Shown here: one piece after another, positions 2,997 to 54,878 of the stretch
Position numbering within the stretch: the stretch's first letter is position 1
Layout of the letters: every line of letters begins with the position of its first letter
Source: Bacillota bacterium
GTDB taxonomy: Bacteria > Bacillota > Sulfobacillia > Fermentithermobacillales > Fermentithermobacillaceae
Reading direction: 5' to 3'
DNA: 64,000 nucleotides
Assembly: GCA_040880305.1 (NCBI GenBank)
Contig: JBBDIP010000049.1
Coordinates: 12,676-76,675 of the forward strand
Translations under genes and position numbers: made by a program
Notes under the pieces: generated by a model
Database searches by the model: none
What the model was told of the DNA's origin: nothing
The model's input: only the letters and a program-made list of their open reading frames with translations

Positions 2997-3864
2997 GCGT
3001 CGTCACGACCTCTCTTAGGACGGGGTGGCGCAAGCGCCCGTCGGGAGTCATTTCGGTGAAGTCCACTTCCACCCCGTAAAACGGTTCCACCCAGCGAATC
3101 TGCCGCACCTCCGCCTTGGAGGGCAAGGCGGCGACGCCGGCAGGCGGTCCCGCGGAATCCAGCGGGCGAAGGCTCTCCAGCAGCAGTTTCTCGTAGTCGC
3201 GGTTGAGCCCCGACGATACGCGCCCCACGACTCTAAAGCCATCGCTCACCTTCTCGGCCGCCACCAGCGACCCCAACAGCCGGCCCGGCGACGGCAGGTA
3301 GCCGACCACCCAAAAAGTCCCCTCGTGCAGGTTCTTGAGCTTGAGCCAGTCGGTCGTCCGCTGGCCGGGGAAGTAAAGGCTGTCCCTCCGCTTAGCCATT
3401 ACGCCTTCCATGTCCTGCTCTTTTGCCCAGGAAAACAGCGCCCTGCCTTCCGCCTCGACCGTCTGGGATAGGATGGCGGACCCGCCCCAGGACATGCAGT
3501 CCGACAGCGCATCCTTGCGACCGTGCAGGGGCAACTCCAGCAAGGACCCGCCGTCCAGCCAGAGGACGTCGAACGCCACGAACAGCACGGAATCGGGGCA
3601 TGTCCGGAGGTAGGAAAAGTCGACCTTGCCGCCTTTCATGGCCACGATCTCGCCATCGAGCAGGACTTCCCTGCTCCGGAGGGCGGGCGCCATCGAAGAC
3701 AGGACCGGGAACTTGGGCAGAAGCGGCTTGCCGTTACGCGAGTCCAGGTAGAGACCCTGGGGACTGATATAGGCCAGACACCGGTACCCATCCCACTTCA
3801 GCTCGAACAGCCAATCGTCGCCGTCGAAGGGGCTGGGCGCAGCGCTGGCCAGCATAGGGCTCAT
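2986..3864 (-). CDS. ligD: ATP-dependent DNA ligase (LigD ligase domain)
   Basis: Track ORF 2986..4014 trimmed to Met51 (MSPMLAS..), 23 nt after the ku stop. Adenylation motif ELKWDGYR (KxDG). OB-fold-like C-terminal part. Confidence 0.85.
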   Translation of the reverse strand: MSPMLASAAPSPFDGDDWLFELKWDGYRCLAYISPQGLYLDSRNGKPLLPKFPVLSSMAPALRSREVLLDGEIVAMKGGKVDFSYLRTCPDSVLFVAFDVLWLDGGSLLELPLHGRKDALSDCMSWGGSAILSQTVEAEGRALFSWAKEQDMEGVMAKRRDSLYFPGQRTTDWLKLKNLHEGTFWVVGYLPSPGRLLGSLVAAEKVSDGFRVVGRVSSGLNRDYEKLLLESLRPLDSAGPPAGVAALPSKAEVRQIRWVEPFYGVEVDFTEMTPDGRLRHPVLREVVTTHAG

Positions 3865-30027: not shown

Positions 30028-30158
30028 CCGTTGACTCCCCCCTGAGCTCTTCGGGCTGTGTCTGCGGTCTCATTTGACAACATATTCCAGTTGTCATTCT
30101 AACTCCTTCTGCACAACTTGGCAACACATACCAAGTCCATGTGGTTGGATCTTCCGCT

Positions 30159-31478: not shown

Positions 31479-31516
31479 GGGAGATGCCCCCTTCGGCTGG
31501 CCCTACATTGTGGTGC

Positions 31517-31537
31517 CAGTCGCGTGACACGCGACTG
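31517..31537. other. perfect 10+1+10 palindrome between recN and spoIVB
   Basis: CAGTCGCGTG-A-CACGCGACTG, ~40 nt upstream of the spoIVB start. A second palindrome, GTTTAC-c-GTAAAC, lies 14 nt further on. Confidence 0.6.
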
Positions 31538-31570
31538 ACACGCAATTAAGGTTTACCGTAAACGGGGGTT

Positions 31571-33265
31571 TTATGACCGGCTTTTGTAGTCATCCGACGC
31601 TCGTATGAGCTCGCGCGCGTGCTCAAGCGATATGTCGAGGCTGCCGCCCGACAGCATCCTTGCGATCTCGCGGGCGCGCTCAGGGGGAGTCAAGGCGCTG
31701 ACCGTGGCGTACGTGCGCCCGTCCTTTTCTTCCTTGGAGACTAGATAGTGGTTGTCGGCCAGCGCTGCGATGGACGCAAGATGGGTCACGCAGAGTATCT
31801 GGTGGCTTCTTCCAAGCTCCCAGAGTTTTTCACCCACGGCCTGACCGGCGTTCCCGCCAATCCCGGCGTCAATTTCATCGAAGATTAGAGTTGGAACGGG
31901 GTCAACCGCTTCCATGTGGGACTTCACTGCCAGCATCAGTCTGGAAAGCTCTCCGCCCGAAGCCACCTTGTTGACGGGCATCGGCGGCTCGCCTGGATTG
32001 GCCGAGAACATGAAACCCACTTTGTCGAACCCATACGGCCCCGGTTCGGCCTCCTGCTCTATCTTGACGCTGAACCTGGCGCCGGGCATCCCAAGTTCTT
32101 GAAGGCTTGCCAACACATCCTGCTCCATGGCCCGCGCGACCTCCCGGCGCAGGCCGGTCAAATTGGCGCCCAAAGACGCCATCTGCTTTCCAATTCCGTC
32201 GAGCTCCTGCCGCAGTCTGGCCAGGGTTTCGTCTGCGTGGACAAGCTCATCGAGGCGGGTCTTGGACAATGCGGCAAACTCGGTGATCCTCTCCACGGTC
32301 TCCCCGTACTTGGATTTCAGGCGCTCCAAAAAATCAAGTCTCTCGGAGATGACGCGCAAGCGCTCCGGGTCAAGCGCCAGTCGCTTGCGATAGTCGCGCA
32401 AGACGTCGAGCGCGGCTTCCAAGTCGAAGGCTACCTGCTGGGCGGCGTCGAGGGCTTGTCCGACTGAAGGATCAATCGAGAGCACCTTACGGAGCTGGGC
32501 TACGGCCTGATCCACTGCCTCTCTGGCGGACCTGTCCGACCCGCGGCTCCCTTCGTACAGCGCCTCGTAGGCGCCACCTGACAGCTCCACCAGCCGCTCC
32601 TGTGAGGATAAGACTCCGTATTCCTGGCGGAGCTCGTCTTCCTCACCCGCCTTTAGCTTGGCCTTGGCAATCTCATCTACCTGATAAGCCAAGAGGTCTA
32701 TCTCGCGTTGCCGCTCGCGGTCTCCCCTGTCAAGGTCCGAGAGGCGCGCAAGCACGGACTGGCGCTTGCGGTAGAGGTCGTTGAACGCGCGGGAGAGCGA
32801 CTCCAGCGCGTCTTTACGGAGGCTGTCCAATATGGAAAGGTAGTTTTGGGGTCGGAGTAGCGAGTGGTGTTCCTGCTGGCCGTGGATGTCTACCAGACGG
32901 CCGCCAAGTTCCTGCGCCATGGAGGCCGTGGCCAGATGGCCGTTTACCCGGAGGTACGACCGGTCGGCCAAAATATCCTTCTGCAGGACAACGTCTCGGG
33001 TTCCCGACAGTGCGGCAAACAGCGGGTCGTCGGGGCCGCCCGGCAGTCCCTCAGGCAGGCCGGCAAGCATCTCGACTACGGCCCGCTCCTCTCCCGTCCG
33101 GAGCAGTTCGCGCGAGGTCCTCTGCCCCAAGCAGGCCAGGACCGCTCCCACCACCATGGACTTGCCGGCCCCCGTCTCTCCGGTGAAGACCGTGAGCCCT
33201 TCGCCCAGATCGAGCCTAACCGAAGAGAACAGGCCGAAATTCCTAATAGAAAGGTAGGAGATCAT
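31571..33265 (-). CDS. recN: DNA repair protein RecN
   Basis: Walker A GETGAGKS, long coiled coil, signature ..ASGGELSR.., Walker B LIFDEIDAG. Confidence 0.93.
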   Translation of the reverse strand: MISYLSIRNFGLFSSVRLDLGEGLTVFTGETGAGKSMVVGAVLACLGQRTSRELLRTGEERAVVEMLAGLPEGLPGGPDDPLFAALSGTRDVVLQKDILADRSYLRVNGHLATASMAQELGGRLVDIHGQQEHHSLLRPQNYLSILDSLRKDALESLSRAFNDLYRKRQSVLARLSDLDRGDRERQREIDLLAYQVDEIAKAKLKAGEEDELRQEYGVLSSQERLVELSGGAYEALYEGSRGSDRSAREAVDQAVAQLRKVLSIDPSVGQALDAAQQVAFDLEAALDVLRDYRKRLALDPERLRVISERLDFLERLKSKYGETVERITEFAALSKTRLDELVHADETLARLRQELDGIGKQMASLGANLTGLRREVARAMEQDVLASLQELGMPGARFSVKIEQEAEPGPYGFDKVGFMFSANPGEPPMPVNKVASGGELSRLMLAVKSHMEAVDPVPTLIFDEIDAGIGGNAGQAVGEKLWELGRSHQILCVTHLASIAALADNHYLVSKEEKDGRTYATVSALTPPERAREIARMLSGGSLDISLEHARELIRASDDYKSRS

Positions 33266-33267
33266 TG

Positions 33268-33723
33268 CTAGAGACCAGCTATCTTCCTGAGCGACTCCAA
33301 CATCTCCTGTGACGAATTGGTTTCTCTTACCACAACCAGGACTGAATCGTCTCCCGCGACGGTGCCCAGGACGCCGGGGAGTTTGAGAGCGTCGATGGCT
33401 TCGCCCACAGCCGAAGCTGTGCCGTCAATGGTTTTGACCAATATGATGTTTAGCGACCTGTCCATGTCAAGACAGCAATCGGTGAAGAGCCGCCTAAAGC
33501 GTTCACGGTATACCAAAGAGGGGTCGCCAGGCATGAGGGCGTATTTGTACCTGCCGTCGCCGGACGGCACCCTGACCAGGTTCATCTCCTTGATGTCTCG
33601 AGAGACTGTCGCCTGGGTGACATGGATGCCCTCGCGCGAGAGCGCCTCACACAGGCCTTCTTGACTGGTAATCACGCTTTGTGATACCAGCTCAACGATC
33701 CTCATCTGTCTTTTAGCTTTCAT
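33268..33723 (-). CDS. argR: arginine repressor
   Basis: Winged-helix ..GIHVTQATVSRDIKE.., C-terminal ..GTVAGDDSVLVV.. Confidence 0.9.
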   Translation of the reverse strand: MKAKRQMRIVELVSQSVITSQEGLCEALSREGIHVTQATVSRDIKEMNLVRVPSGDGRYKYALMPGDPSLVYRERFRRLFTDCCLDMDRSLNIILVKTIDGTASAVGEAIDALKLPGVLGTVAGDDSVLVVVRETNSSQEMLESLRKIAGL

Positions 33724-33762
33724 CTGGATGTCCCCCGGTACGTCACCGTTTGTCTGGAACCG

Positions 33763-34650
33763 CTACCTTGGAAGCCTGTCAGCCCCTTCCTTCATCTTTC
33801 GGCGCAGCACGTCGTAGAACGACCACTCGTTACGCCGGAGAAGGACCACTCTTAAACCTGAGGTGGACACTCGGACTCGGTCGCCTGCGTACAGCGGCAG
33901 GAACTCCTGCCCGTCTACTGACAGCGAGGTCGACTGGCTTGGTTCGACCACTTCGATCTCACAGGGCTCGGACGACGGCACTACCATTGATCTGGAATAC
34001 AGGGTGTGCGCGCAAACCGGCGTCACCAAGAGCGCGTCTATCTCCGGTGACATGAGGGGTCCGCCTGCGGACAACGAGTATGCCGTGGAGCCTGTGGGGG
34101 TAGCCACTATGACCCCGTCGGCGAAATAGGTGTCCACCTCGTTGCCGTGGACCCGAAGAGTGAGAGCCGTCATGCGTCCGTACGGGCCTTTAATGACAGC
34201 AGCCTCATTCATGGCGATGCTCTCATACACCTTCCGGCCTTCCCGGAAAACCTGCGCTGTGAGAGTGATCCTCTCATCCCTCTTACACGCGCCGGAGATG
34301 AACGAGGGCAACGCCGTGAACAAGTCGATAGATTCGAGTTCGGTTAGGAAGCCAAAATGCCCAAGGTTGACGCCTAGAAGCGGGATCCCCAGGGGGCCCA
34401 AAGCCCTCGCCGCGCCAAGGAGCGTGCCGTCCCCGCCCAAGACTATCGCGAAATCCGTGTTCGAGGACCATTTGTCCAGGGGCAGACTAGTCTGGGGCAG
34501 GCCAAGCATTTGGGCAACGCATGACGGAAAGTAGCCGACATGCCCCCGCTCTCTCAGCCAATCAAAGAGCTTTGCGGAAAGCTCCCTGCTGCCTTCCTTC
34601 TCGAGGTTAGGGTAGATACCTATTCTTCTTCCCGTCGGCTTGTCCGTCAT
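33763..34650 (-). CDS. nadK: NAD kinase
   Basis: GGDGT motif (VLGGDGTLLGAAR), ..GVNLGHFGFL.., ..ATPTGSTAYSLSAGGP.. Confidence 0.9.
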   Translation of the reverse strand: MTDKPTGRRIGIYPNLEKEGSRELSAKLFDWLRERGHVGYFPSCVAQMLGLPQTSLPLDKWSSNTDFAIVLGGDGTLLGAARALGPLGIPLLGVNLGHFGFLTELESIDLFTALPSFISGACKRDERITLTAQVFREGRKVYESIAMNEAAVIKGPYGRMTALTLRVHGNEVDTYFADGVIVATPTGSTAYSLSAGGPLMSPEIDALLVTPVCAHTLYSRSMVVPSSEPCEIEVVEPSQSTSLSVDGQEFLPLYAGDRVRVSTSGLRVVLLRRNEWSFYDVLRRKMKEGADRLPR

Positions 34651-36527
34651 TTCCCTTTTCCGAGTGCTTCCTGCACTCTCGCGGCGATGGACCTAGCGTC
34701 GAGGCCGTAAACCTCCCGCAACTTGGCCTGCGACCCGTGCTGCAAAAACCTCTCGGGCAAACCCACCTTGAAGACCGCAGCGCGCTCATTGTTGGATAGG
34801 GCGTCCACAACCGCCTGCCCAAATCCGCCCGACACGACGTTTTCTTCCAACACCCAAACTGGACCCTTAATCGCTGCCAGAGAGATCGTCGAAACGTCCA
34901 GAGGCTTGCTGAACCTGGCGTTCACAACCCCACACGAAATACCCTGTTCTCGTAAGATCTCCGCAGCCGCGACGGCAGGGGCGACCATACTTCCCAGGGC
35001 AACCAGGTTCGCATCCCTCCCCCATGACAGCACTTCGGCCTTTCCCGGCTCCAGCAATTCGGGGGCATCCAGCGCACTCAAATAGTCCACCCCCACCGCC
35101 GCGCCTCTCGGATACCTGACTGCGCAGGGCCCGGGGATGCGGAGCGCGGTATACAGCATGTCGACCAGTTCCTTTTCATCCTTGGGCGCCATGATTGTGA
35201 TACCGGGGACAGGGTTCAGATACGACAGGTCGAATTCACCATGGTGGGTTTCTCCGTCCTCTCCGACAAGTCCTGCACGGTCTATGGCGAACACTACCTT
35301 CTGCCCCTGCAGGCACACGTCTTCGATTATCTGGTCGTACGAGCGCTGCAAGAATGTCGAGTAGATCGCCACTACCGGAAGCATCCCACCCTGGGCGAGA
35401 CCCGCCGCGAAGGTGACCGCGTGACTCTCTGCTATGCCCACGTCGAAGAACCTATCCGGGTATCTGGCCTTGAACTCGTTCAGCCCGGTCCCGTCCGACA
35501 TGGCCGCCGTTATGGCGACAATCCTCGGGTCGTCCTTCGCGAAGCGACACATAGCTTCGCCGAACACTTTGTTCCACGCGACTGAGTCGTTGTTCTTGAA
35601 GATCTCTCCGGTAACCGGGTCGAAAGGGCCCGGCCCGTGGAACTTCTCGGGCTCCTCTTGGGCAGGAGCGTAGCCGCGTCCTTTTTGGGTGACCACGTGG
35701 ACCAGGACCGGCTCCCTCAGCATCTTGGCTTCTTCGAAGACCTTCTGCATAGCGGATATGTCGTGACCGTCGATGGGGCCGTAATAGCGGAAGCCTAGCG
35801 ATTCGAACCACGCCTCAGGAAACAAGAAGTACTTGAGGCCGCCTTTTAGCCTCCGCAAGAGGCTCGCCGCTTTCTTCCCCAAGCTTGGCATGCGTTCAAG
35901 AAGGCGCTCGACCGTCTGCTTGGTCGACCGGTACAAAGGCGCCAAGCGCAAAATCGTGAGGTAATACGAGATGCCTCCAACGCTCTCGGATATTGACATG
36001 GAGTTGTCGTTGACCACCACGATTAGGTTGGTCCTGGAATCGCCGGCGTTGTTTAGGCCCTCAAAGGCCACGCCCGAGGTCAACGCCCCGTCACCGATGA
36101 CCGCCACTACTTTGTAGTCCTCTTGGCGAAGGTCCCTGGACTTGGCCAGCCCGAGAGCATACGAGATTGACCCCGACGCATGCCCGGTGTCATAGATGTC
36201 GAACGGGCTTTCAGCCCGCTTGGGATAGCCCGAGATCCCGCCGAACTTCCGCAGCGTGTGGAAGTTTTCATATCGTCCTGTCACCAACTTGTGGGCGTAC
36301 GACTGATGGCCGACGTCCCACACGATCTTGTCGTCCGGCGTGTGAAATACCGTGTGGAGAGCCAGGGTCAACTCGACGACTCCGAGAGATGAGGCCAGAT
36401 GGCCTCCGTTCTTAGAGACCGTCGCGACTATCTCTTCCCTAATGGCGCGCGCGATCTCATTTAGATCGCGCACCGTCATGCCACGCAGGTCAGAAGGAGA
36501 TTTTACGTCAGAGAGTTTCCGAGTCAT
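34647..36527 (-). CDS. dxs: 1-deoxy-D-xylulose-5-phosphate synthase
   Basis: Track ORF trimmed to Met13 (MTRKLSDVKSPSDLR..), an ATGA overlap with the upstream ORF. ..GGHLASSLGVVELT.., TPP motif IGDGALTSG. Confidence 0.93.
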   Translation of the reverse strand: MTRKLSDVKSPSDLRGMTVRDLNEIARAIREEIVATVSKNGGHLASSLGVVELTLALHTVFHTPDDKIVWDVGHQSYAHKLVTGRYENFHTLRKFGGISGYPKRAESPFDIYDTGHASGSISYALGLAKSRDLRQEDYKVVAVIGDGALTSGVAFEGLNNAGDSRTNLIVVVNDNSMSISESVGGISYYLTILRLAPLYRSTKQTVERLLERMPSLGKKAASLLRRLKGGLKYFLFPEAWFESLGFRYYGPIDGHDISAMQKVFEEAKMLREPVLVHVVTQKGRGYAPAQEEPEKFHGPGPFDPVTGEIFKNNDSVAWNKVFGEAMCRFAKDDPRIVAITAAMSDGTGLNEFKARYPDRFFDVGIAESHAVTFAAGLAQGGMLPVVAIYSTFLQRSYDQIIEDVCLQGQKVVFAIDRAGLVGEDGETHHGEFDLSYLNPVPGITIMAPKDEKELVDMLYTALRIPGPCAVRYPRGAAVGVDYLSALDAPELLEPGKAEVLSWGRDANLVALGSMVAPAVAAAEILREQGISCGVVNARFSKPLDVSTISLAAIKGPVWVLEENVVSGGFGQAVVDALSNNERAAVFKVGLPERFLQHGSQAKLREVYGLDARSIAARVQEALGKGK

Positions 36528-37093
36528 CTCCTCGCGCCCGTCCTTCCTAGCGCCGCTAACCAAAGACGCCTTAATCTGCCAAGCAAAAGGATGATGGTTT
36601 CAGCGTACTTCAAAGCAAACGGCTTGGAAAGGGCTTTGGCTCCTACGGAAAGAAACGACGCGACACCCACGGCCGCGCTCGCGAGGTAGACTTGGTTCAA
36701 AGCGGGAAACCCCGCCCGCACACGGAAGGCCATCGCCACCGCCAGCGCCCCCGAAAGAGTCGCCGAAACATCACCCATCAGATCGCTAAATACGGAAGAA
36801 ACCCGAGAAGCGTTCCTTACAAACCACACAGCCTCTCTCGCCCCCGCGACCCTGCGCGAGCTCATCGATAGGAGTGACTCCTCTTTGGCCCGCGCGCTGG
36901 CGAGGCCGACGGCGTCGGAGACCACTCCTAGCAGGACCACGCCCAAGAACAAGGGGACGGTGAAACCAAGCGGAATTCGTCGTGAGAGGTTTTCTAACGA
37001 TAGGTTCATGCCAAAGCTCAGTAAGAAACCGGCCAGCGCGAGGCCGAGACACTGCAGGTACCATCTGAGAATGCCGGTTTTCCTCTTCGCCAT
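36524..37093 (-). CDS. oapA: small polytopic membrane protein, candidate OLE-associated protein OapA
   Basis: 189 aa, about four hydrophobic segments, SDLMGD (D-x-x-x-D) inside one of them. Its position between a long non-coding gap and dxs is the published OapA context. No alignment to OapA was possible by eye. Confidence 0.5.
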   Translation of the reverse strand: MAKRKTGILRWYLQCLGLALAGFLLSFGMNLSLENLSRRIPLGFTVPLFLGVVLLGVVSDAVGLASARAKEESLLSMSSRRVAGAREAVWFVRNASRVSSVFSDLMGDVSATLSGALAVAMAFRVRAGFPALNQVYLASAAVGVASFLSVGAKALSKPFALKYAETIILLLGRLRRLWLAALGRTGARR

Positions 37094-37099
37094 TAAATG

Positions 37100-37715
37100 G
37101 TTAGGTTCTCGCCTCCGAGGGGCAGCGCATGCAGTAAATCTTGTGCCTTTAGGTCCAGCAGGATTTCCCGCCGGCCAACCCCCGCTTCCGCGTTGGGCGG
37201 TTCCCCTTTAAGGCCGGCCTGCCGCGTCACCGTTGGCAGAGCTGGATCACCACTTAGTGCACACCGCAACCCCGCACGCGCCCGCATAAGACAGTCTAGG
37301 AGTTTTCCTCAAAGGCCCCTGTCCCTAGCCTTTTTTGCAGCCGAGCTTTCAGGAGGAACCATCCTGCCCGGCCACTCAAGACAGGCCATGTCTCTTGTTA
37401 AGGACACAACCGATAAGACGCGAATTTCTCCGGTCTTCGCGAAAAAAGGGCATACAGCCTACATGCCATTGTAGGTTTCCCTTTTTTCCTTCTCCCTAAA
37501 GAAGCCGGAAGCTGGGCGCAACCAGCCTCTTAAAGGGCGAACTCCGGTTCTGGCCCACGACGGATTTTTAGCCCCGCCTTTGGAACAGGTCAGCCCACTA
37601 GAATACTGCGCCCTCTCGGAGGAGGAACGCATCACGTATTATAGGGGATATGCTGGGCAAATGCAAATCCTGGCCTGTGCCAGCCGCTGAAACGCCAAGG
37701 CCCGGCTTACCGCTA
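37100..37715 (-). ncRNA. ole: candidate OLE (ornate, large, extremophilic) RNA; boundaries approximate
   Basis: ~620 nt without a credible ORF between ispA and the OapA-like gene. Many GC stems visible by eye. Size and synteny (xseA-xseB-ispA-[RNA]-membrane protein-dxs-nadK-argR-recN) match the described OLE locus. The consensus was not checked. Confidence 0.5.
37638..37666 (-). promoter_or_regulatory. sigma-A-like promoter element TTGCAT-N17-TATAAT
   Basis: The minus strand reads ggatTTGCATttgcccagcatatccccTATAATacg. The -10 is perfect, the -35 matches 3/6. It lies inside or at the 5' end of the OLE candidate and could be fortuitous. Confidence 0.35.
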
Positions 37716-37718
37716 TGT

Positions 37719-37997
37719 GGCCAGGGATGAACCATGTCTATCCTGTATGGCTACCGGCAGACCGTGATTTGAGGGGATGTAACCAAGGATGGACCGTTTC
37801 CTTAGAGGATCTGGCCACCGGTGAACCGTTTCCGCCAAAGTGACTATGGACAGCCCATGTTTCGAGGAAAATAACCACTGATGAACCAGATCCGCCCAAG
37901 AACCGGCTACTGGCGAGCCATATCCTTTGACGTAACCATCTGCAGACCATATTCGCGGGAGAAGCGACTACTGGCGGGCCGAATCAACTCCTGAATC
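37719..37997. repeat. nine degenerate direct repeats at 29-32 bp phasing
   Basis: 15-nt cores start at 37719, 37749, 37781, 37813, 37842, 37873, 37905, 37934 and 37966: ggccagggatgaacc, ggctaccggcagacc, aaccaaggatggacc, ggccaccggtgaacc, gactatggacagccc, aaccactgatgaacc, ggctactggcgagcc, aaccatctgcagacc, gactactggcgggcc. Consensus RRCYAnnGRnRRRCC. Confidence 0.8.
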
Positions 37998-38064
37998 GTG
38001 GCGGGGCTGAGAGTTGGCCCCACGTTCCACGGATGCGGGACTCGCTTGGCGCGCTTTGCAGCGT

Positions 38065-38922
38065 CTAGGTGGCTCGGATCAGGTATCTCCTGGTCAGGTC
38101 CTCGGCCAGCGTAGCGCGGCCCTTGAAATGGCCGAGGAGCGCGAGGGCGGCTTCCAGAGCCTCTTTGGCTTCGAGGCAGGCCTCTTCCCGCGAAGTCTCC
38201 CTCGCCAGGGTGTCCTTGTCCTGCTCCTTCTGGCTTTGGTCATCGTCTTCGAGGTCGTCGAGCACTTGGAATGCGTAGCCGAACAGTGAACCCCATTCGC
38301 CGGCAGCGTCTTCCGTCTCCTGCGGAGCGCCGGCTAAGATGGCTCCTAGCCTGGCAGAGGCCTGGAAAAGCGCGCCGGTCTTAAGAGCGTACATCTTCCT
38401 CACCTTATCGGCGCCGCCGGGACTGCGTTCAAAGCCCAGGTCAAGAATCTGGCCTCCGACCATCCCGGACGGGCCGGCAGCTCTTGAGAGGGTCGCTAGG
38501 CCACGGACTACCCGGTCAGGCGGCAATGAAGGCGAGCGCGCAGCCACCTCGAAAGCCGCTGTGAGGAGCGCGTCACCGGCCAGCAACGCAGTCGAATAGC
38601 CGAACTTTTTGTGGCAGGAGGGTTTGCCGCGGCGAAAGTCATCGTCGTCCATGCAAGGGAGGTCGTCGTGGACAAGGGAGTAGGCCTGGATCATCTCGAG
38701 CGCAGCGGCAAAATCCAGGGCTTCTTCGGCCTGCCCGCCCAGGGCTTCGAAGAAACACAGCAAGATGGAGCCTCTCAGCCGCTTCCCGCCTTCGAGGGCG
38801 TAGGCGCAGGCGTCCCGCAAGACCTCGCCACACTGGAATTCTGCAGGTACCGCCTGCACATGGCGGTCGACAAGCGCCTTGTACCGCTCAAGCGTGTCTT
38901 GTGACAACGCCTTTCCTCCCAA
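38065..38922 (-). CDS. ispA: farnesyl/geranylgeranyl diphosphate synthase
   Basis: First DDxxD region LVHDDLPCMDDDDFRRGKPSCH and second FQVLDDLED. Confidence 0.9.
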   Translation of the reverse strand: MGGKALSQDTLERYKALVDRHVQAVPAEFQCGEVLRDACAYALEGGKRLRGSILLCFFEALGGQAEEALDFAAALEMIQAYSLVHDDLPCMDDDDFRRGKPSCHKKFGYSTALLAGDALLTAAFEVAARSPSLPPDRVVRGLATLSRAAGPSGMVGGQILDLGFERSPGGADKVRKMYALKTGALFQASARLGAILAGAPQETEDAAGEWGSLFGYAFQVLDDLEDDDQSQKEQDKDTLARETSREEACLEAKEALEAALALLGHFKGRATLAEDLTRRYLIRAT

Positions 38923-38929
38923 CGCCGTT

Positions 38930-39145
38930 CTATTCCTTCGGCTGGTCTTCGGTGGGGTTCAGGATCTCCTTGACCTTGCGCTCCGCGCGGTCCAGGACTC
39001 TCTCCAACTGCCTCGCCAGGCTTATTCCTTCCTCAAACTTGCGAAGGGAATCCTCCAGCGAGAGTTCGCCGCTCTCCAGCGACTTGACGGTCTCCTCAAG
39101 CTTCTTCAGAGCCTTAGCGAACTCGAGGTCTTTGGCGGCCATCAC
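38930..39145 (-). CDS. xseB: exodeoxyribonuclease VII small subunit
   Basis: 71 aa, ..FAKALKKLEETVKSLESGELSLEDSLRKFEEGISLARQ.. Confidence 0.9.
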   Translation of the reverse strand: MMAAKDLEFAKALKKLEETVKSLESGELSLEDSLRKFEEGISLARQLERVLDRAERKVKEILNPTEDQPKE

Positions 39146-40374
39146 TTTCCCTCCTCAGGGGGTCTTGAGTCTTCGACCAGGCAACGCAACGAGCCCCTAA
39201 ACAATGACACGTCCAACCGGGTGCCGGCCGGCGCATCCTTGTGGTCGCGAACTATCGCACCGTCCTCTGCCCTGCGGGCCAGGCTGAACCCTCTTGAGAG
39301 GATCTGTAGCGGGCTCAGGGCGTCAAGTGAGGACGCGACGTTGGCAAGCCCTGCGCGCGCCCTTTCCAGTAGTGCCTGGACGGCGTCTTCCAGGTCTTCG
39401 CGCAGGCGGACCAAAGACTCCCTGGATGACACCAAGAACCAGTCTGGCCGCTCCAGCGCGGGCCTTTGGCGCAGGAGGCTCAGGGTTTGACGCAGCCCGC
39501 CAATCAGCGTGTAGACCTGATTGCGCATTCCTTCCTCAAAGGACTGGACTTCCTGCCGCAGATCGATAGCATTTGGCACTACCATCTCCGCGGCCTGTGA
39601 GGGAGTGGCTGCCCTCGCGTCGGCGACCAAGTCGGCGACAGTGAAATCCCGCTCGTGTCCGACGGCCGAGACAACCGGTGCTCTGGACGAGTAGATGGCG
39701 CGGGCGACAACCTCGTCATTGAAGACCCAGAGGTCCTCCTGAGAGCCTCCTCCTCTACCGACCACGATGACGTCTACCTCCGGCAGTTCATTGAGGGTGC
39801 GGATCCCGCGGGCGATGTCCTTGGCGGCCCCATCGCCCTGGACTTTGGTGTCGGCTACCGCGAAAGCAACGCCTGGATAGCGACGCCGGCCAACCGAGAC
39901 TATGTCCTTTATCGCGGCGCCCCGGATCGAGGTGACCAGGCCGATGGTGCGCGGGAAGGCAGGGAGAGGGCGTTTGCGCTCCTCGGCGAATAGCCCCTCC
40001 GCCTCCAGCCTCTGTTTGAGTCTCTCCAGAGCGGCGTAGAGAGCTCCGAGGCCGGACGGCTCCATGTAGGTCGCGTAGACCTGGTAGACACCATCCCGCT
40101 CAAACACGGAGACGTTGCCCGCGACCAGGACTTCGGATCCATCAGTGGGGACAAAGGTGAGTCGCGCCGCGTCGGTCCTCCACATGACAGCCTTGACCGA
40201 GCACTTCTGGTCCTTGAGGGTGAAGTAAAGGTGCCCCTGATAGTTGCGGATATTGGCGATCTCGCCCCGGACCAGAACTTGCCGCAGGAGCTCGTCCTTC
40301 CAAAGGACGTCCTTGACGTAGGAGTTGAGCTGGCTGACTGTGAAGGCGCTATCGGATTGGAGCATCACGAGCAC
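39142..40374 (-). CDS. xseA: exodeoxyribonuclease VII large subunit
   Basis: OB-fold N-terminus ..FTVSQLNSYVKDVL....V.GEI.N.......GHLYFTLKD.., 4-nt overlap with xseB. Confidence 0.9.
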   Translation of the reverse strand: MLVMLQSDSAFTVSQLNSYVKDVLWKDELLRQVLVRGEIANIRNYQGHLYFTLKDQKCSVKAVMWRTDAARLTFVPTDGSEVLVAGNVSVFERDGVYQVYATYMEPSGLGALYAALERLKQRLEAEGLFAEERKRPLPAFPRTIGLVTSIRGAAIKDIVSVGRRRYPGVAFAVADTKVQGDGAAKDIARGIRTLNELPEVDVIVVGRGGGSQEDLWVFNDEVVARAIYSSRAPVVSAVGHERDFTVADLVADARAATPSQAAEMVVPNAIDLRQEVQSFEEGMRNQVYTLIGGLRQTLSLLRQRPALERPDWFLVSSRESLVRLREDLEDAVQALLERARAGLANVASSLDALSPLQILSRGFSLARRAEDGAIVRDHKDAPAGTRLDVSLFRGSLRCLVEDSRPPEEGK

Positions 40375-40398
40375 CCCCTCTCATCCCCAAAATTCCAA

Positions 40399-40427
40399 GG
40401 ATACCGGCCTTTGAGGGGCCGGTATCC
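40399..40427 (-). terminator. intrinsic terminator after nfnB
   Basis: Perfect 11-bp stem GGATACCGGCC-n7-GGCCGGTATCC, followed on the minus strand by TTGGAATTTTGGGG, 30 nt after the nfnB stop. Confidence 0.62.
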
Positions 40428-40457
40428 TATCATGACTTGGCGGGGGCCGTAGCCTTG

Positions 40458-41855
40458 CTAGGCCCAGGTCTCCTGGTTGCCGTTGAGGTACTCGTCGATG
40501 TCCTTGGCAGCCGCCTTGCCGGCGCCCATGGCCAGGATGACAGTGGCGGACCCGGTGACAGCGTCGCCGCCAGCCCAGACCCTGGATTTGGTGGTGCGGC
40601 CGGCCTCGGTGGCTCTGAGCCCGCCCCAATCCTGGGCATCCAAGCCAGGGGTGGTGGTCGGGAGGATCGGGTTCGGCGTAGTGCCGAGGGCCATGATCAC
40701 AATGTCGCAGTCCATGACGAACTCGGAGCCTGGGATGGCCACGGGACGCCTTCGCCCGGACTTGTCGGGCTCGCCCAGTTCCATCTTCACGCACTCAAGG
40801 CCGGTCACCCAGCCCTTTTCATCGCCGATCACGCGGATGGGGTTGGTCAGGAGATGCATCTCCACGCCTTCTTCCTCGGCGTTCTCCAACTCCTCCAGCC
40901 TTGCCGGCATCTCGGCGCGGCCCCTGCGGTACACGATGCATGCCTTTTCGGCGCCCAGCCTAAGGGCGCAACGTACCGAGTCCATCGCCACATTCCCTGC
41001 CCCAACGACCGCGACTCTCTTGCCGCGCTTCACGGGAGTGTCAAACTCGGGGAACAAGTAGGCCTTCATCAGGTTGATCCTGGTCAGCCACTCGTTGGCC
41101 GAGTAGACGCCGTTAAGGTTCTCGCCGGGGATGTGCATGAACATGGGGAGACCCGCGCCCGAACCGACGAAGACGGCCTGGTACCCATCGTCGAAGAGCT
41201 CGTCGATGGTGATGCTCCTGCCCACGACCACGTCGGTCTCGATCTCGACTCCCAGCTGCCGCACGTAGTCTACTTCACGCCTCACAACGTCCTTGGGCAG
41301 ACGAAACTCGGGTATGCCGTATATCAGCACGCCGCCCGCTGCGTGAAGCGACTCGAAGATTCTGACGCCGTAGCCCATCTTGGCCAGGTCGCCGGCGCAG
41401 GTAAGTCCCGCGGGGCCGGCGCCCACGACGGCCACTTTCTTGCCGTTGGTCTGTGGCTTTTCGACCTTGCTGCTTCCGTGCAGAGCTTCCCAGTCGGCCG
41501 CGAACCGCTCGAGGCGGCCGACGGCGATGGGCTGGCCGGTCCTGAATAGGACGCACTTGATCTCGCACTGGTGTTCCTGGGGGCAGACCCTTCCGCAGAC
41601 GGCGGGCAGGTTGTTGGTCTCTTTGATGGTGTCTATGGCTGATTGAAAGTTCCTATCCTTAAGGTACTTGATGAAGTTGGGAATCTTGACTGCGACAGGG
41701 CATCCCGTCATGCAGAGCGGATTCTTGCACTGGAGGCAACGGGCGGCCTCTCCGATAGCCATTTCTTCAGTGTATCCCTGCGCGACTTGTTCGAAGTTGG
41801 TAGCCCTTTCCTTGGGGTCCTGCATGGGCATTGCTGTCCTTTGCTTGACGGGCAT
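40458..41855 (-). CDS. nfnB: NfnB / glutamate-synthase small-chain-like NADPH-dependent FAD oxidoreductase
   Basis: N-terminal Cys clusters (CLQCKNPLCMTGCP, CGRVCP..C), Rossmann motifs VAVVGAGPAG and VAVVGAGNVAMD. Paired with a PyrK-like subunit. Confidence 0.82.
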   Translation of the reverse strand: MPVKQRTAMPMQDPKERATNFEQVAQGYTEEMAIGEAARCLQCKNPLCMTGCPVAVKIPNFIKYLKDRNFQSAIDTIKETNNLPAVCGRVCPQEHQCEIKCVLFRTGQPIAVGRLERFAADWEALHGSSKVEKPQTNGKKVAVVGAGPAGLTCAGDLAKMGYGVRIFESLHAAGGVLIYGIPEFRLPKDVVRREVDYVRQLGVEIETDVVVGRSITIDELFDDGYQAVFVGSGAGLPMFMHIPGENLNGVYSANEWLTRINLMKAYLFPEFDTPVKRGKRVAVVGAGNVAMDSVRCALRLGAEKACIVYRRGRAEMPARLEELENAEEEGVEMHLLTNPIRVIGDEKGWVTGLECVKMELGEPDKSGRRRPVAIPGSEFVMDCDIVIMALGTTPNPILPTTTPGLDAQDWGGLRATEAGRTTKSRVWAGGDAVTGSATVILAMGAGKAAAKDIDEYLNGNQETWA

Positions 41856-42691
41856 TAGTTGTCACCTCCACAGCTGGCGCAGCGCTCGTTGGCGATCTTC
41901 TCTTCGTCCCGGTACAAATTGGCCCGGCGCCACGCCTCCTGCCAGTCGACCTCATGTCCGTCGAACATGGGACCGTCAACGCAGCAAAACTTGGTCTTGC
42001 CGCCCACCGTGACGCGGCACGCGCCGCACATCCCGGTGCCGTCGACCATGATGGGGTTCATCGAAACCCAGGTCTTCAGCCCAAAAGGTTTGGTAACGTC
42101 GCAGACGGCCCTCATGGCGGGCATGGGCCCTATTGTGACGACCTCATCGACCTTTAGACCTTTCTCTATGAGCTCCTTGAGCTGGTTGGAAATATACCCG
42201 TGAAAACCGCGGCTGCCGTCGTCGGTGCAGATGAACACAGCATCTGAGCAGGCGCGCATTTGGTCTTCAAGGATGATGAGATCCTTGGAGCGGGCGCCTA
42301 TGATTGAGATGACCTTGACTCCCCGCCTGTGCAATTCCTTGGCTTTGGGGAGGCAAGGAGCGACTCCGACTCCGCCGCCCGCGATCACGACGATGCCTTT
42401 TTCGGGCAGCTCTGCCGGGACACCCAGCGGTCCCACCAAGTTGAGGATGCAATCGCCGGCTTCGAGGCTGCCAAGAAGCCGTGTGCTGAACCCGACCTCC
42501 TGGAAGACCAGCGTGATGGTGCCATTCTCCCGGTCGTAGTCGGCGAGGGTGAGAGGTATGCGCTCACCCTCCTCGCGGACGCGCAGGATAATGAACTGCC
42601 CAGGCTGGGCCTTGGCTGCCACGTAGGGGTTTCTTACGACGATCAGTTTGGTGACGGGGGTAAGGACCTGCTTCACGAGAATGTCGTTCAT
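41855..42691 (-). CDS. nfnA: NfnA / PyrK-like FAD and [2Fe-2S] subunit
   Basis: Track ORF trimmed to Met36 (MNDILVKQVL..), downstream of the nusB stop. RIPLTLADY FAD motif, C-terminal GTGMCGACRV cluster motif. Confidence 0.8.
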   Translation of the reverse strand: MNDILVKQVLTPVTKLIVVRNPYVAAKAQPGQFIILRVREEGERIPLTLADYDRENGTITLVFQEVGFSTRLLGSLEAGDCILNLVGPLGVPAELPEKGIVVIAGGGVGVAPCLPKAKELHRRGVKVISIIGARSKDLIILEDQMRACSDAVFICTDDGSRGFHGYISNQLKELIEKGLKVDEVVTIGPMPAMRAVCDVTKPFGLKTWVSMNPIMVDGTGMCGACRVTVGGKTKFCCVDGPMFDGHEVDWQEAWRRANLYRDEEKIANERCASCGGDN

Positions 42692-42770
42692 CCCATCTAT
42701 CCTCCAGTTTCTTTTTAGAGAGCACCGCCGCGAGATTGCTTGTCCAAGAGATACGGCGACACGTTTAATT

Positions 42771-43214
42771 TTACTCTTCTGAGGCTTTCTTGGCATGCCC
42801 CATTTCGCGGAAGACTGCTACTAGCACCCCGTTGACGAACCTCGGCGACGCGTGGGTGGAGAACTCCTTTGAGAGCTCCAGAGCCTCGTCGATCACGACT
42901 TCGTCAGGGGTCTTACCGAGGTAGATAGCCTCGGCCACCGCCAGCCTGAGTATGGAAAGGTCCACCCGGGGCATCCGGGGCAGGGGCCACCCTTGCGAGG
43001 CCTTAGCGAGGAGAGGATCTATCTCGCCCGCATGGGCGACCGCGGAGAGGAAAAGCTCCTTGGCGTAGTCAAAACGGGCGCTCCCCTCGAAGTAGCTCTC
43101 GACGACCTGGGCAAACACCACGTCAGGGGCGTCTTTGGAAATCTCCCAACAAAAAAGCGCCGATAGCGCCAGTATTCTGGCGTCGTGCCGTCTCATCTGC
43201 CCTGTTGTGATCAA
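42771..43214 (-). CDS. nusB: transcription antitermination factor NusB
   Basis: ..RILALSALF..E.., ..VDLSILRLAVAE.., ..EALELSKEF....PRFVNGVL.. Confidence 0.9.
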   Translation of the reverse strand: MITTGQMRRHDARILALSALFCWEISKDAPDVVFAQVVESYFEGSARFDYAKELFLSAVAHAGEIDPLLAKASQGWPLPRMPRVDLSILRLAVAEAIYLGKTPDEVVIDEALELSKEFSTHASPRFVNGVLVAVFREMGHAKKASEE

Positions 43215-43456
43215 TGGAAATCGGGTCTTCCAGGAAGCTTCTCCTCCAGGAATTCCCTCAGGCCCTTCCCTTCGTCATCCATCCACTTGCCTATAGAATA
43301 CCCAATTGTCGTAAGCAAAGAGACCACCAGCGTCCTCCACAGCCCCAACCAGATCAGGCACACGCCCATGAGCAACCCCACGGTGGTGCCCAGCAGCCGT
43401 CCGGGGTGCTCCCGGAGGGTGCGGAGGATCCTGTCCCAGAAACCTTCCTGATCCAC
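43211..43456 (-). CDS. DUF2273 small membrane protein
   Basis: 81 aa, two TM segments, in its conserved position after asp23-amaP. Confidence 0.7.
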   Translation of the reverse strand: MDQEGFWDRILRTLREHPGRLLGTTVGLLMGVCLIWLGLWRTLVVSLLTTIGYSIGKWMDDEGKGLREFLEEKLPGRPDFH

Positions 43457-43468
43457 TTCCGTCTCCCC

Positions 43469-44008
43469 CTAACGCCGGCCTTCCAGCGAGATGTCTGAGA
43501 CCGACACCCTCACCGAATCAACAGTCACACCCACAATGTCGTGGACGTAGGAAGACGTGGCTTTTTGCACTTTGTCAGCAAGATCCGGCAGGTTGGCGTC
43601 CGACGCGACTTTTAGGTCAAGCGCCACCTGAATGCCTGTCCCCAACGAGTTCAGCTGGACGTGGGTGCGGACTTCCCTCACTCCCGGCGTTCTGGAAGCT
43701 ACGCGGGTGACCAGGCTCTTCACCGCGACCAGCGAGATGTTGACCTCGCCCATCCCGGTATTGTGGACCACTGCCTGGGCGGGCGCTCTCTTGAAACCGT
43801 AGTAGATGAAGCGGAGTCCGGCTAAGAAAATGAGGCCTGAGACGATACCGGTGGCTGTCCGCCCCGAGGGCATCCTGAGCGTGTCAATGATCAGGTCCAC
43901 TGGGGCGTTCCATCCAAAAGAGGTAAGAACCACCATGAAGGAGACCACGGTGAGGGCCAACGCATAGAGGCTTAGGACCACTCTATCGACGATTCCCAAG
44001 AAAACCAC
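43469..44008 (-). CDS. alkaline-shock-response membrane anchor protein AmaP-like
   Basis: 179 aa, N-terminal TM segments, immediately downstream of the Asp23 gene. Confidence 0.7.
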   Translation of the reverse strand: MVFLGIVDRVVLSLYALALTVVSFMVVLTSFGWNAPVDLIIDTLRMPSGRTATGIVSGLIFLAGLRFIYYGFKRAPAQAVVHNTGMGEVNISLVAVKSLVTRVASRTPGVREVRTHVQLNSLGTGIQVALDLKVASDANLPDLADKVQKATSSYVHDIVGVTVDSVRVSVSDISLEGRR

Positions 44009-44012
44009 CCCG

Positions 44013-44396
44013 CTAAGAGTTTTGGTCGGATTCAGGCTTCGCCGCGTCTTGGAACGTCACGCCTTGGATGTGGATGTTGACCTGCGAAACCTTCAAATCG
44101 GTCATGCCCTCCACGGATTTCTTGACGCTCTCCTGCACTTTGAAGGCCAACTCAGGGATTCTGGCGCCGTACTTGACTGCTAGGTAGAGATCCAGCGTGA
44201 CGTCCTTATCGGCGGACGCGACTCTGACTCCTTTGGCGGTGTACTTCCTGCCCAGGATGGCCCCTCCGATGTCGCCCACGATATTCCCTGCCATTGCGGC
44301 GACTCCTTGGACCTGGGATGCAGCTACGCTGGCTATTGCAGCAATGACGTCGTCGGATATCTTGACTTCCGAGCTCCCCGGGGTGTCTTCCGGCAC
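44013..44396 (-). CDS. Asp23/Gls24-family stress protein
   Basis: ..KISDDVIAAIASVAA..V.GV.., ..GVRV......V.LDLYL.V.YG..IPE.A..VQE.V...VE.MT.L.V..VN.. Confidence 0.88.
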   Translation of the reverse strand: MPEDTPGSSEVKISDDVIAAIASVAASQVQGVAAMAGNIVGDIGGAILGRKYTAKGVRVASADKDVTLDLYLAVKYGARIPELAFKVQESVKKSVEGMTDLKVSQVNIHIQGVTFQDAAKPESDQNS

Positions 44397-44524
44397 TATT
44401 TGGCCTCCTTGGAAAACCTTACGTTAACCATTATACAGATGGTTCCCAGGCAAACACAATGTCCACGGGGCGGAGGGTAGCCGGCTCCCGTGGGCATCGT
44501 GGATCGTGGGCGGTCACGACACGG

Positions 44525-54379: not shown

Positions 54380-54455
54380 CAGCCCGTAGTTCGCCTGCAC
54401 CTTGATCGCCGGCAGCAGACAACCTCTTCGGGAGGCACAGCACCGCCGGATGCAA

Positions 54456-54774: not shown

Positions 54775-54878
54775 CGAGATAGTCTCCAAGCAATAAGGAG
54801 CCCGGGTCCGGACCGCCTTGAGGCGCGGCGCGGAAACCCGGGCCAGCAATTCAGACTCTCAAGCGCCTGTGGCACCTC

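What the first reader, a model, noticed from the sequence alone, without database searches (positions are those of the whole stretch)
37719..37997. Nine degenerate repeats phased at ~31 bp between ispA and the OLE candidate
A 15-nt core (RRCYAnnGRnRRRCC; for example ggctaccggcagacc, ggccaccggtgaacc, ggctactggcgagcc, gactactggcgggcc) recurs nine times with spacings of 30, 32, 32, 29, 31, 32, 29 and 32 bp. The spacings are not multiples of 3, so a coding repeat cannot stay in frame. The only ORF here (37738..37950, 70 aa) looks repeat-derived. Alternate units are more alike: ggccaccggtgaaccgtttccgccaaag versus aaccactgatgaaccagatccgcccaag, 60 bp apart. About 31 bp is close to three helical turns, so every core would face the same side of the DNA. 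Inference: this could be an array of phased protein-binding sites upstream of the RNA gene, or a decayed minisatellite. I know of no described element with this architecture at ole loci.
Basis: seen in the sequence. Interest (0 to 1): 0.7.

Follow-up and report, generated by a model that had tools for sequence, protein, structure and literature searches.

The report
Decayed 31-bp tandem repeat upstream of OLE
A real but badly eroded run of nine 31-bp DNA repeats sits in the non-coding gap between the ispA gene and the promoter of the OLE RNA gene; it is most likely an old bacterial minisatellite, and related bacteria carry similar but unrelated repeat runs at the same spot.

Summary
Nine head-to-tail units (period 30.85 bp, cores at 37719-37980) share the core GGYYCRYCNNTRGYY on the - strand. 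Autocorrelation peaks at lags 32, 61, 92 and 124 exceed all 2000 shuffles. Seven of the eight exact pattern matches in 64 kb lie in the array.

The array is not part of OLE RNA (Rfam hit 37103-37630). It lies between the ispA stop (38065) and a conserved sigma-70-type OLE promoter (-35 at 37666-37661, -10 at 37643-37638).

It does not fold better than shuffles on either strand, shows no covariation, has no credible ORF, and is not a dispersed element. Its unit matches nothing in 55 related loci from other organisms.

Relatives often carry their own unrelated arrays at the same place, with periods of about 31, 42.5, 52-53 and 62 bp. Arrays also occur in other spacers, including window 54455-55011. 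In one relative the array lies between divergent promoters.

Best reading: a decayed minisatellite, typical of intergenic DNA in this Bacillota lineage. A helically phased DNA-level role upstream of the strong OLE promoter is not excluded, because periods cluster near multiples of 10.5 bp. Interest is modest.

The parts
37710..37988 (-). Whole array: nine head-to-tail units of 29-32 bp. The sense (- strand) consensus is nnGGAnAT GGTCCGCCnGTGGTC ACnTC.
37966..37980 (-). Unit 1 core, nearest ispA: GGCCCGCCAGTAGTC on the - strand
37934..37948 (-). Unit 2 core: GGTCTGCAGATGGTT on the - strand.
37905..37919 (-). Unit 3 core: GGCTCGCCAGTAGCC
37873..37887 (-). Unit 4 core: GGTTCATCAGTGGTT
37842..37856 (-). 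Unit 5 core, the most divergent: GGGCTGTCCATAGTC
37813..37827 (-). Unit 6 core: GGTTCACCGGTGGCC
37781..37795 (-). Unit 7 core: GGTCCATCCTTGGTT
37749..37763 (-). Unit 8 core: GGTCTGCCGGTAGCC
37719..37733 (-). Unit 9 core, nearest the OLE promoter: GGTTCATCCCTGGCC
37638..37667 (-). Predicted sigma-70-type promoter of OLE. The -35 is TTGCAT at 37666-37661 (the scan tool calls TTTGCA at 37667-37662), followed by a 17-nt spacer and the -10 TATAAT at 37643-37638. It ends about 7 nt before the OLE 5' end. The same box is present in relatives.
   Evidence: experimental precedent in H. halodurans, PMC3413148
37103..37630 (-). OLE RNA gene (Rfam RF01071, 306.5 bits, full-length model match). It does not include the array.
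38065..38922 (-). ispA (farnesyl-diphosphate synthase family; DDLPCMDDDD motif). It is the upstream gene of the same strand.
   Evidence: PF00348 on the orthologues
36524..37093 (-). oapA, the membrane protein partner gene directly downstream of OLE. It served as the anchor for collecting related loci.

Best explanation
The array is an old, decaying tandem-duplication array, that is, a bacterial minisatellite. It lies in non-coding DNA between the end of ispA and the OLE gene's own promoter.

Inferred history: a unit of about 31 bp, possibly amplified as a three-unit block of about 92 bp, was multiplied head to tail by replication slippage or unequal recombination. The copies then drifted apart, mostly by transitions plus a few 1-3-bp indels, to about 49% pairwise identity. 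That is why the period is still visible although Tandem Repeats Finder no longer detects the array.

It is not part of OLE RNA, not a structured RNA, not coding and not a mobile or dispersed element. It is one case of a lineage-wide habit. In this group of Bacillota, near Candidatus Fermentithermobacillaceae, intergenic spacers, and especially the one upstream of the OLE promoter, are repeatedly filled by fast-evolving, lineage-specific tandem arrays.

Shown: the repeat structure, its position, the absence of structure, coding and homology, and the recurrence of unrelated arrays.
Inferred: the slippage origin, and the lack of any present sequence-specific function beyond spacing ispA from the OLE promoter.
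For: - Periodicity is real but the units are only about 49% identical. TRF is silent.
- The OLE model ends at 37630, and no other Rfam family matches 30000-45000 at E<=1 apart from one chance miRNA-model hit (E 0.28) about 3.4 kb from the array.
- RNA folding is no better than shuffles on either strand: whole-spacer z -1.1 and -1.0; local span <=40 nt z +0.6 and +0.2.
- The candidate 5-bp unit hairpin pairs in 84% of cells, but column shuffles give 86% and covariation is below the shuffle mean.
- ORFs over the array have no Pfam hit, and unit lengths of 29-32 bp break any reading frame.
- The core pattern is absent elsewhere in the window apart from one chance hit. In the 56 loci held when one search ran (the window's own region is not one of them), it is found only in L052, a short contig of the same organism.
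- An HMM of the nine units hits nothing outside the window's own units at E<2.6. blastn of the spacer against the 37 loci held at that point gives E>=0.31, and there is no plasmid match.
- Relatives with 52-80% OapA identity vary widely. Some have short spacers of 72-110 nt with no array, some have an inserted ROK gene, and some have their own unrelated arrays at the same place: L030 62 nt, L038 and L039 52 nt, L002 52.5, L008 53, L025 42.45, L007 and L040 about 31, L006 17.
- Arrays also occur in other spacers: window 54455-55011 between glyA and a pepP-like gene, xseB-ispA spacers, and oapA-dxs in L025.
- In a spacer survey, 7 of 14 OLE-upstream spacers and 4 of 32 other spacers were significantly periodic. 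Counting only internal 'other' spacers gives 4 of 16.
- The length variation among units is about what neutral indels would produce at this divergence (inference).
Against: - The core keeps a strict purine/pyrimidine pattern. Core transitions to transversions are 168:48, against 166:204 in the flanks, and four positions are invariant. This could reflect constraint rather than pure drift.
- The register has been kept within +/-0.74 bp over nine units.
- A period of about 31 bp recurs upstream of OLE in at least three other lineages with unrelated unit sequences (L007, L040, L030).
- Array periods cluster near multiples of 10.5 bp.
- Arrays appear commoner upstream of OLE than in other spacers, though the difference is fragile.
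- On the sense strand every G9/G10/G21 partner is a pyrimidine, so 84% of stem cells can pair. By my count's pair types, only 44% could pair on the other strand.
Confidence: 0.55

Rival explanations
1. Phased architectural or regulatory DNA. The cores would be binding sites, or bend-inducing modules, spaced about three helical turns apart upstream of the very strong OLE promoter. A multimeric or wrapping protein, or intrinsic curvature, would activate, repress or insulate OLE transcription. Unit sequences would co-evolve with the partner in each lineage, while the period stays tied to the helical repeat.
For: - The array lies at about -50 to -340 from a conserved promoter.
- In H. halodurans the OLE promoter is proximal, strong and ethanol-inducible through an unknown regulator (PMC3413148).
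- The period of 30.85 bp is 2.94 turns.
- Periods of about 31, 42.45, 52-53, 62 and 114-115 bp in related arrays cluster near n x 10.5. Rayleigh p is about 0.001 for 17 arrays and 0.04-0.07 after collapsing possibly related ones.
- In L002 the array lies between two divergent predicted promoters, so it is probably untranscribed DNA.
- The core shows purine/pyrimidine conservation and invariant positions.
- Arrays are commoner upstream of OLE than elsewhere.
Against: - No motif is shared between the arrays of different lineages. The best 6-mer recurs in 4 of 24 spacers.
- Many relatives have spacers of only 72-110 nt with no array, yet keep the same promoter, so the array is dispensable for OLE expression.
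- Similar arrays sit in unrelated spacers.
- A drift of 0.65 bp per unit puts the first and last cores on opposite faces.
- No candidate binding protein was identified.
- The phasing statistic rests on a small, partly non-independent sample.
Confidence: 0.2
2. RNA-level element. The array would be transcribed by read-through from ispA, as a 3'UTR or as the leader of an ispA-OLE precursor. Each unit would offer a weak hairpin or single-stranded site for an RNA-binding protein or RNase, for example to stop or process read-through transcripts before OLE.
For: - No intrinsic terminator is found between ispA and the array.
- Some OLE is co-transcribed with neighbouring genes in H. halodurans (PMC3413148).
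- On the sense strand 84% of stem cells pair through G-C or G-U. By my count's pair types, only 44% would pair on the antisense strand. Slid registers pair in 13-64% of cells.
- Arrays in some relatives fold better than shuffles, and in most of these more so on the sense strand: L025 z -5.0 against -3.2, with 41 G-U pairs; L038 -2.3 against -0.7; L049 -2.5 against -1.3; L002 -3.6 against -2.9.
Against: - The window array does not fold better than shuffles.
- There is no covariation; pairing is explained by column composition.
- A 4-5-bp stem rich in G-U would be unstable.
- Arrays in L030, L006, L007, L027 and L008 are not structured.
- The L002 array lies between divergent promoters.
- The hairpin units of relatives do not meet the terminator criteria.
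- No Rfam family matches.
Confidence: 0.12
3. Remnant of another repeat-bearing element: a decayed CRISPR array, plasmid-type iterons or centromere repeats, or stacked REP/MITE copies.
For: - There is a 61-62-bp super-period.
- Each unit has a short partial dyad, superficially like the sopC or iteron architecture (own knowledge).
Against: - All nine 31-bp segments share the core, so there is no repeat-spacer alternation.
- The motif is not dispersed in the window or the loci.
- There is no similarity to any plasmid in PLSDB.
- The flanking genes are the ordinary xseA-xseB-ispA-OLE-oapA-dxs-nadK-argR-recN chromosome block.
Confidence: 0.03

Closest known systems
Bacterial minisatellites / VNTR-type intergenic tandem repeats
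   Same: Head-to-tail copies of a unit of tens of bp in non-coding DNA. Turnover is rapid between related genomes, copy number and period are lineage-specific, and old arrays decay into cryptic periodicity.
   Different: This copy is far more eroded (about 49% identity) than arrays normally scored as VNTRs, and TRF misses it. Polymorphism between strains could not be tested. Its position just upstream of the OLE promoter recurs in relatives.
Proximal promoter of OLE RNA in Halalkalibacterium halodurans (Wallace et al. 2012, PMC3413148)
   Same: A sigma-70-type promoter directly upstream of the OLE 5' end. The window and its relatives have a conserved TTGCAT-17-TATAAT box at the same place.
   Different: That work describes no repeat array upstream of the promoter. 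The array here is outside the promoter and outside the RNA.
Phased multi-site operator arrays bound by wrapping oligomers, e.g. Lrp/AsnC-family sites spaced about three helical turns apart, or F-plasmid sopC 43-bp repeats (from my own knowledge, not tested)
   Same: Several sites of about 15 bp at a spacing close to an integral number of helical turns, next to a promoter.
   Different: There is no match to any known operator consensus, no identified protein, and no conservation of the site sequence between relatives. A cumulative phase drift of about half a turn builds up across the array.
Hairpin-unit arrays of relatives: L025 42.45 nt x11.6, L008 53 nt, and a single copy in L012
   Same: Same genomic position upstream of the OLE promoter and the same orientation. 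By eye, TGGTnCATCCC...GCCA resembles window units 4 and 9.
   Different: The L025 unit HMM does not hit the window and the window unit HMM does not hit those loci. Window units have lost the inner stem pairs and do not fold.

Membership tests
OLE RNA (Rfam RF01071) | The sequence is covered by the OLE covariance model | tested here: not met
   The full-length model match is 37103-37630 on the - strand. The array at 37710-37988 lies outside it, upstream of the promoter.
Any curated RNA family (Rfam 15) | A match at E<=1 on either strand | tested here: not met
   In 30000-45000 only OLE and one chance miRNA-model hit elsewhere were found.
Structured RNA repeat (hairpin array) | Folding energy better than shuffles | tested here: not met
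   z -1.1 and -1.0 for the whole spacer; +0.6 and +0.2 with span <=40 nt.
Structured RNA repeat (hairpin array) | Covariation that preserves the stem among units | tested here: not met
   84.4% of cells pair against 86.0% in column shuffles. The covariation score is 0.42 against 0.46.
Tandem repeat / minisatellite | Head-to-tail copies with a period significantly above background | tested here: met
   Lags 32, 61, 92 and 124; 0 of 2000 shuffles reach the maximum. The nine units align without gaps. Seven of eight pattern matches cluster here.
Tandem repeat / minisatellite | Detected by Tandem Repeats Finder | tested here: not met
   No TRF row even at minimum score 30. The units are below the roughly 70% identity that TRF needs.
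Tandem repeat / minisatellite | Copy-number or sequence polymorphism between strains | not testable with these tools
   The only other contig of this organism (L052) covers unit 9 and part of unit 8, and is identical there. The ispA look-up found nothing.
CRISPR array | Conserved repeats alternating with unique spacers | tested here: not met
   Every 31-bp segment carries the core, and there are no unique spacers.
Dispersed repeat (REP / BIME / MITE) | Copies at many loci in the genome | tested here: not met
   There is one chance match elsewhere in 64 kb, against 1.6 expected, and none in the loci of other organisms. The whole genome was not available.
Coding repeat | An open frame kept across units, with protein homologues | tested here: not met
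   Unit lengths are 29-32 bp. The 70-, 42- and 41-aa ORFs have no Pfam hit.
Intrinsic terminator(s) | A G+C-rich stem followed by a U run | tested here: not met
   The scan finds no site inside 37710-37988 on either strand.
Phased protein-binding array (Lrp-like, iteron-like) | Site spacing close to an integral number of helical turns | tested here: inconclusive
   30.85 bp is 2.94 turns at 10.5 bp per turn, with a drift of about 5 bp over the array. Lineage-wide clustering of periods is suggestive only.
Phased protein-binding array (Lrp-like, iteron-like) | A protein that binds the units | not testable with these tools
   This needs DAP-seq, footprinting or pull-down. No motif is shared between lineages.

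The most novel reading that the evidence does not exclude
In this Bacillota lineage the DNA just upstream of the strong OLE promoter would be a selected landing zone for helically phased tandem arrays, with periods of about 3, 4, 5 or 6 turns. The unit sequences turn over quickly, but the phased architecture would be kept because it wraps or positions a protein, or absorbs the supercoiling generated by very high OLE transcription. It would thereby tune or insulate OLE expression. The window's nine-unit array would be an old, still-phased example.
Probability: 0.15. Interest if true: 0.6.

Novelty: new member of a known kind. Interest (0 to 1): 0.3.

Why it matters
For annotation, the result separates three things a sequence reader could merge: the OLE RNA, its own conserved promoter, and a repeat array that belongs to neither.

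For OLE biology, the regulation of this highly expressed, stress-linked RNA is unknown. A recurrent and possibly helically phased repeat zone upstream of the promoter gives a cheap experiment: delete or re-phase the array in a promoter fusion. If the arrays are neutral, they are still useful. They are strain-typing markers, and they may explain why metagenome contigs so often break just upstream of OLE.

Tried and rejected
- Part of OLE or another known RNA: rejected by Rfam at E<=1.
- Structured RNA on either strand: rejected by global and local folding against shuffles and by the pair-count controls.
- Coding repeat: rejected; no frame is kept and there is no Pfam hit.
- Dispersed or mobile element, or plasmid-derived iterons: rejected on the available sequence.
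- Sequence homology of the unit to arrays in relatives: not found. This covers the unit HMM, blastn of the spacer, the reverse search with the L025 unit HMM and a shared k-mer search. A by-eye resemblance to L025, L008, L030 and L038 units (GCGGAA..GGTTC; TGGTnCATCCC..GCCA) remains unproven.
- Weak HMM similarity of the unit to an OLE-internal segment at about +240 (E 6-31 in many loci): judged to be chance. That segment is one strand of a long OLE helix and has no partner in the array.
- Terminator-array idea for the hairpin units of relatives: not supported by the terminator scan.
- Mutational strand bias as the cause of the G-U excess: not supported. Synonymous-site GC and AT skews are small.
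- CsrA-site idea: only two window units carry GGA, and they are on the antisense strand. Not pursued.
- Strain-level comparison: failed. The only other contig of the organism ends inside the array, and the ispA look-up found nothing.
- DNA curvature modelling: not attempted, because I could not vouch for the wedge parameters from memory.

Full report
**Layout.** The window carries, on its - strand, the block xseA (39142-40374), xseB (38930-39145), ispA (38065-38922), a 434-nt spacer (37631-38064), OLE RNA (37103-37630; Rfam RF01071, 306.5 bits, full model), oapA (36524-37093) and dxs (34647-36563). Downstream are ORFs that match in size, order and spacing the nadK, argR and recN annotated after dxs in the relatives. 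The OapA protein is identical to a hypothetical protein of a 'MAG: Bacillota bacterium'. The nearest named relatives among the fetched loci are Candidatus Fermentithermobacillaceae MAGs.

**Observation.** On the strand of ispA and OLE they align without gaps to nnGGAnAT-GGTCCGCCnGTGGTC-ACnTC. The degenerate core is GGYYCRYCNNTRGYY, with four invariant columns. The regression period is 30.85 bp, with a residual SD of 0.74 bp.
- Autocorrelation peaks at lags 32, 61, 92 and 124 exceed every one of 2000 dinucleotide shuffles.
- In a sliding scan of the whole window this is the second most periodic non-coding stretch.
- TRF finds nothing, because the units are only about 49% identical.

**Position relative to transcription signals.** A sigma-70-type promoter lies directly upstream of the OLE 5' end. 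It consists of TTGCAT, a 17-nt spacer and TATAAT at 37666-37638 on the - strand; the scan tool scores it as TTTGCA-18-TATAAT, 10 of 12. The same box sits at the same distance from the OLE start in relatives: L002, L003, L007, L012, L014, L015, L025, L030, L038, L039, L043, L046, L049, L054 and L056, with a TATGAT variant in L040. In H. halodurans a promoter immediately upstream of ole drives more than 100-fold higher expression and responds to ethanol, and some OLE is also co-transcribed with neighbours (PMC3413148). The array therefore lies upstream of the OLE promoter, at about -50 to -340, and downstream of the ispA stop. No intrinsic terminator is predicted between ispA and the array, so read-through transcription is possible but not shown.

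**What it is not.**
- No Rfam family other than OLE matches 30000-45000 at E<=1, apart from a chance miRNA-model hit elsewhere.
- As RNA, neither strand of the spacer folds better than shuffles: z -1.1 and -1.0. With pairs limited to 40 nt, z is +0.6 and +0.2.
- A candidate 5-bp hairpin per unit (columns 8-12 with 20-24) pairs in 84% of cells on the sense strand. From the pair types I count 44% on the other strand. Column shuffles give 86%, and covariation is below the shuffle mean. The pairing potential therefore comes from invariant G facing pyrimidines, not from compensatory change.
- The ORFs over the array have no Pfam match, and unit lengths of 29-32 bp break any frame.
- The motif is not dispersed, and the spacer matches no plasmid.

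**Comparative evidence.** I collected 56 loci around oapA homologues (52-80% identity) from metagenomes and genomes, and located OLE in them.
- The spacer upstream of OLE is highly variable. It is 72-110 nt with no array in L004, L009, L010, L016, L019, L026 and L036. A ROK-cupin gene is inserted between ispA and OLE in L003, L014, L015, L040, L043 and L046. Unrelated, divergently oriented genes lie upstream in L002 and L053.
- The window's unit is not found in any other organism: unit HMM best foreign E 2.6; blastn E>=0.31; exact core pattern only in L052, a 1.4-kb contig of the same organism.
- Long spacers nevertheless usually contain their own arrays:

| Locus | Period and copies |
|---|---|
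| L030 | 62 nt x4-5, 86-95% identical, with a 31-nt sub-period |
| L038, L039 | 52 nt |
| L002 | 52/53 nt x5 |
| L008 | 53 nt x3 |
| L025 | 42.45 nt x11.6, plus 18 nt x6.7 |
| L007 | 31 nt x2.3, within a wider 32-nt periodicity |
| L040 | four units of about 31 nt between the ROK gene and the promoter |
| L006 | 17 nt x10 |
| L027 | 114 nt x2 |

- No k-mer is shared by the arrays of more than 4 of 24 spacers.
- The L025 hairpin unit is detectably related only to L008 and to a single copy in L012.

**Arrays are not peculiar to OLE.** The window has a much younger array in the glyA/pepP-like spacer: 54455-54774 (115 nt x2.8, 95% identical) and 54878-55011 (12 nt x9.6). Relatives have arrays between xseB and ispA, between ispA and the ROK gene, and between oapA and dxs. 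In a rough survey of ORF-free segments, 7 of 14 OLE-upstream spacers and 4 of 32 others were significantly periodic. Two more upstream arrays were masked by spurious ORFs. Restricting 'others' to internal segments gives 4 of 16. The enrichment upstream of OLE is suggestive, not robust.

**Interpretation.** The simplest account is a tandem duplication array that arose in this spacer and has been decaying. That fits the low unit identity, the lack of structure, coding and homology, the dispensability of any array in relatives that keep the same promoter, and the abundance of young and old arrays in this lineage.

Some features keep a functional reading alive:
- The core differs among units almost only by transitions (168:48, against 166:204 in the flanks), and four positions are invariant.
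- The register is well kept.
- A period of about 31 bp recurs with unrelated sequences in L007, L040 and L030.
- Seventeen array periods of at least 20 bp cluster near multiples of 10.5 bp. Rayleigh p is about 0.001, or 0.04-0.07 after collapsing possibly related arrays.
- In L002 the array lies between two divergent predicted promoters, so any role there would be at the DNA level.

Mutational strand bias does not explain the G-U-type asymmetry, because synonymous-site skews are small. I put the neutral relic at 0.55, a phased DNA-level role at 0.20, an RNA-level role in read-through transcripts at 0.12, and other repeat-bearing elements at about 0.03. The remainder is unassigned.

**Novelty.** Searches of the held literature for OLE together with promoter, ispA, transcription start or the lineage name found no description of repeat arrays at ole loci. 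The array itself is a new instance of a known kind of sequence, a bacterial intergenic tandem repeat. The lineage-wide recurrence and the possible helical phasing upstream of the OLE promoter are the only parts that could be of wider interest, and they need a genome-scale test.

Noticed in passing
window 54455-55011: A second, much younger intergenic array lies between glyA (55013-56281, - strand) and a pepP-like gene (53257-54336, - strand). It has 115-nt units x2.8 at 95% identity, each with three small hairpins, followed by a 12-nt unit x9.6. It folds far better than shuffles on both strands (z -4.9 and -8.0).
   Followed up: partly
window 37638-37667 (- strand), and the same position in L002, L003, L007, L012, L014, L015, L025, L030, L038, L039, L040, L043, L046, L049, L054, L056: A conserved sigma-70-type promoter (TTGCAT/TTGACA-17-TATAAT) directly abuts the OLE 5' end across the lineage. 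This matches the experimentally shown proximal OLE promoter of H. halodurans.
   Followed up: partly
L025 2381-2874; L008 3125-3258; L012 3382-3406: A hairpin unit (TGGYRCA-5 nt-TGTGCCA-TTTTG) is amplified 11.6 times in L025 (period 42.45) and 3 times in L008 (period 53), and is single-copy at -75 from OLE in L012. It is always on the OLE strand. One arm varies only by transitions opposite G or U, a wobble-tolerant pattern. It does not meet the terminator scan criteria.
   Followed up: partly
L017 267-311; L040 1601-1732: Tandem copies of CCAAGGATGTACAAT (x3, 15-nt period) lie upstream of OLE in L017. A 59-nt unit containing TTTTCAAGGATGT lies just after ispA in L040. From my own knowledge, CAAGGATGT is close to the CsrA SELEX consensus RUACARGGAUGU. 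Two window units carry CCAAGGATGG and CCAGGGATGA, but on the antisense strand.
   Followed up: no
L003, L014, L015, L040, L043, L046 (between ispA and OLE): A gene of 416-475 aa encoding ROK-family and mannose-6-phosphate-isomerase/cupin domains is inserted between ispA and OLE in several close relatives. It is absent from the window.
   Followed up: no
L001, L038, L039, L052, L054, L056 (contig ends): Many short metagenome contigs end 65-290 nt upstream of the OLE start, in two cases (L038, L039) inside a clear array. This suggests that arrays at this position break short-read assemblies or are polymorphic.
   Followed up: no
all arrays in the window and in L002-L040: Array periods of at least 20 bp cluster near integral multiples of 10.5 bp: about 31, 42.45, 52-53, 62, 114-115 and 21. 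Rayleigh p is about 0.001 uncollapsed and 0.04-0.07 collapsed. Exceptions are 59, 40, 36 and 24.
   Followed up: partly
L002 3032-3481: The 52/53-nt x5 array lies between two divergent predicted promoters. One (3061..3032, - strand) faces a Uma2-like gene and the other (3453..3481, + strand) faces OLE. There is no ispA upstream.
   Followed up: partly
window 34205-34323 (- strand): There is a weak Rfam hit to the mir-8515 model (26 bits, E 0.28, gathering score 100) inside the nadK-sized ORF 33763-34650 just downstream of dxs. It is almost certainly chance.
   Followed up: no
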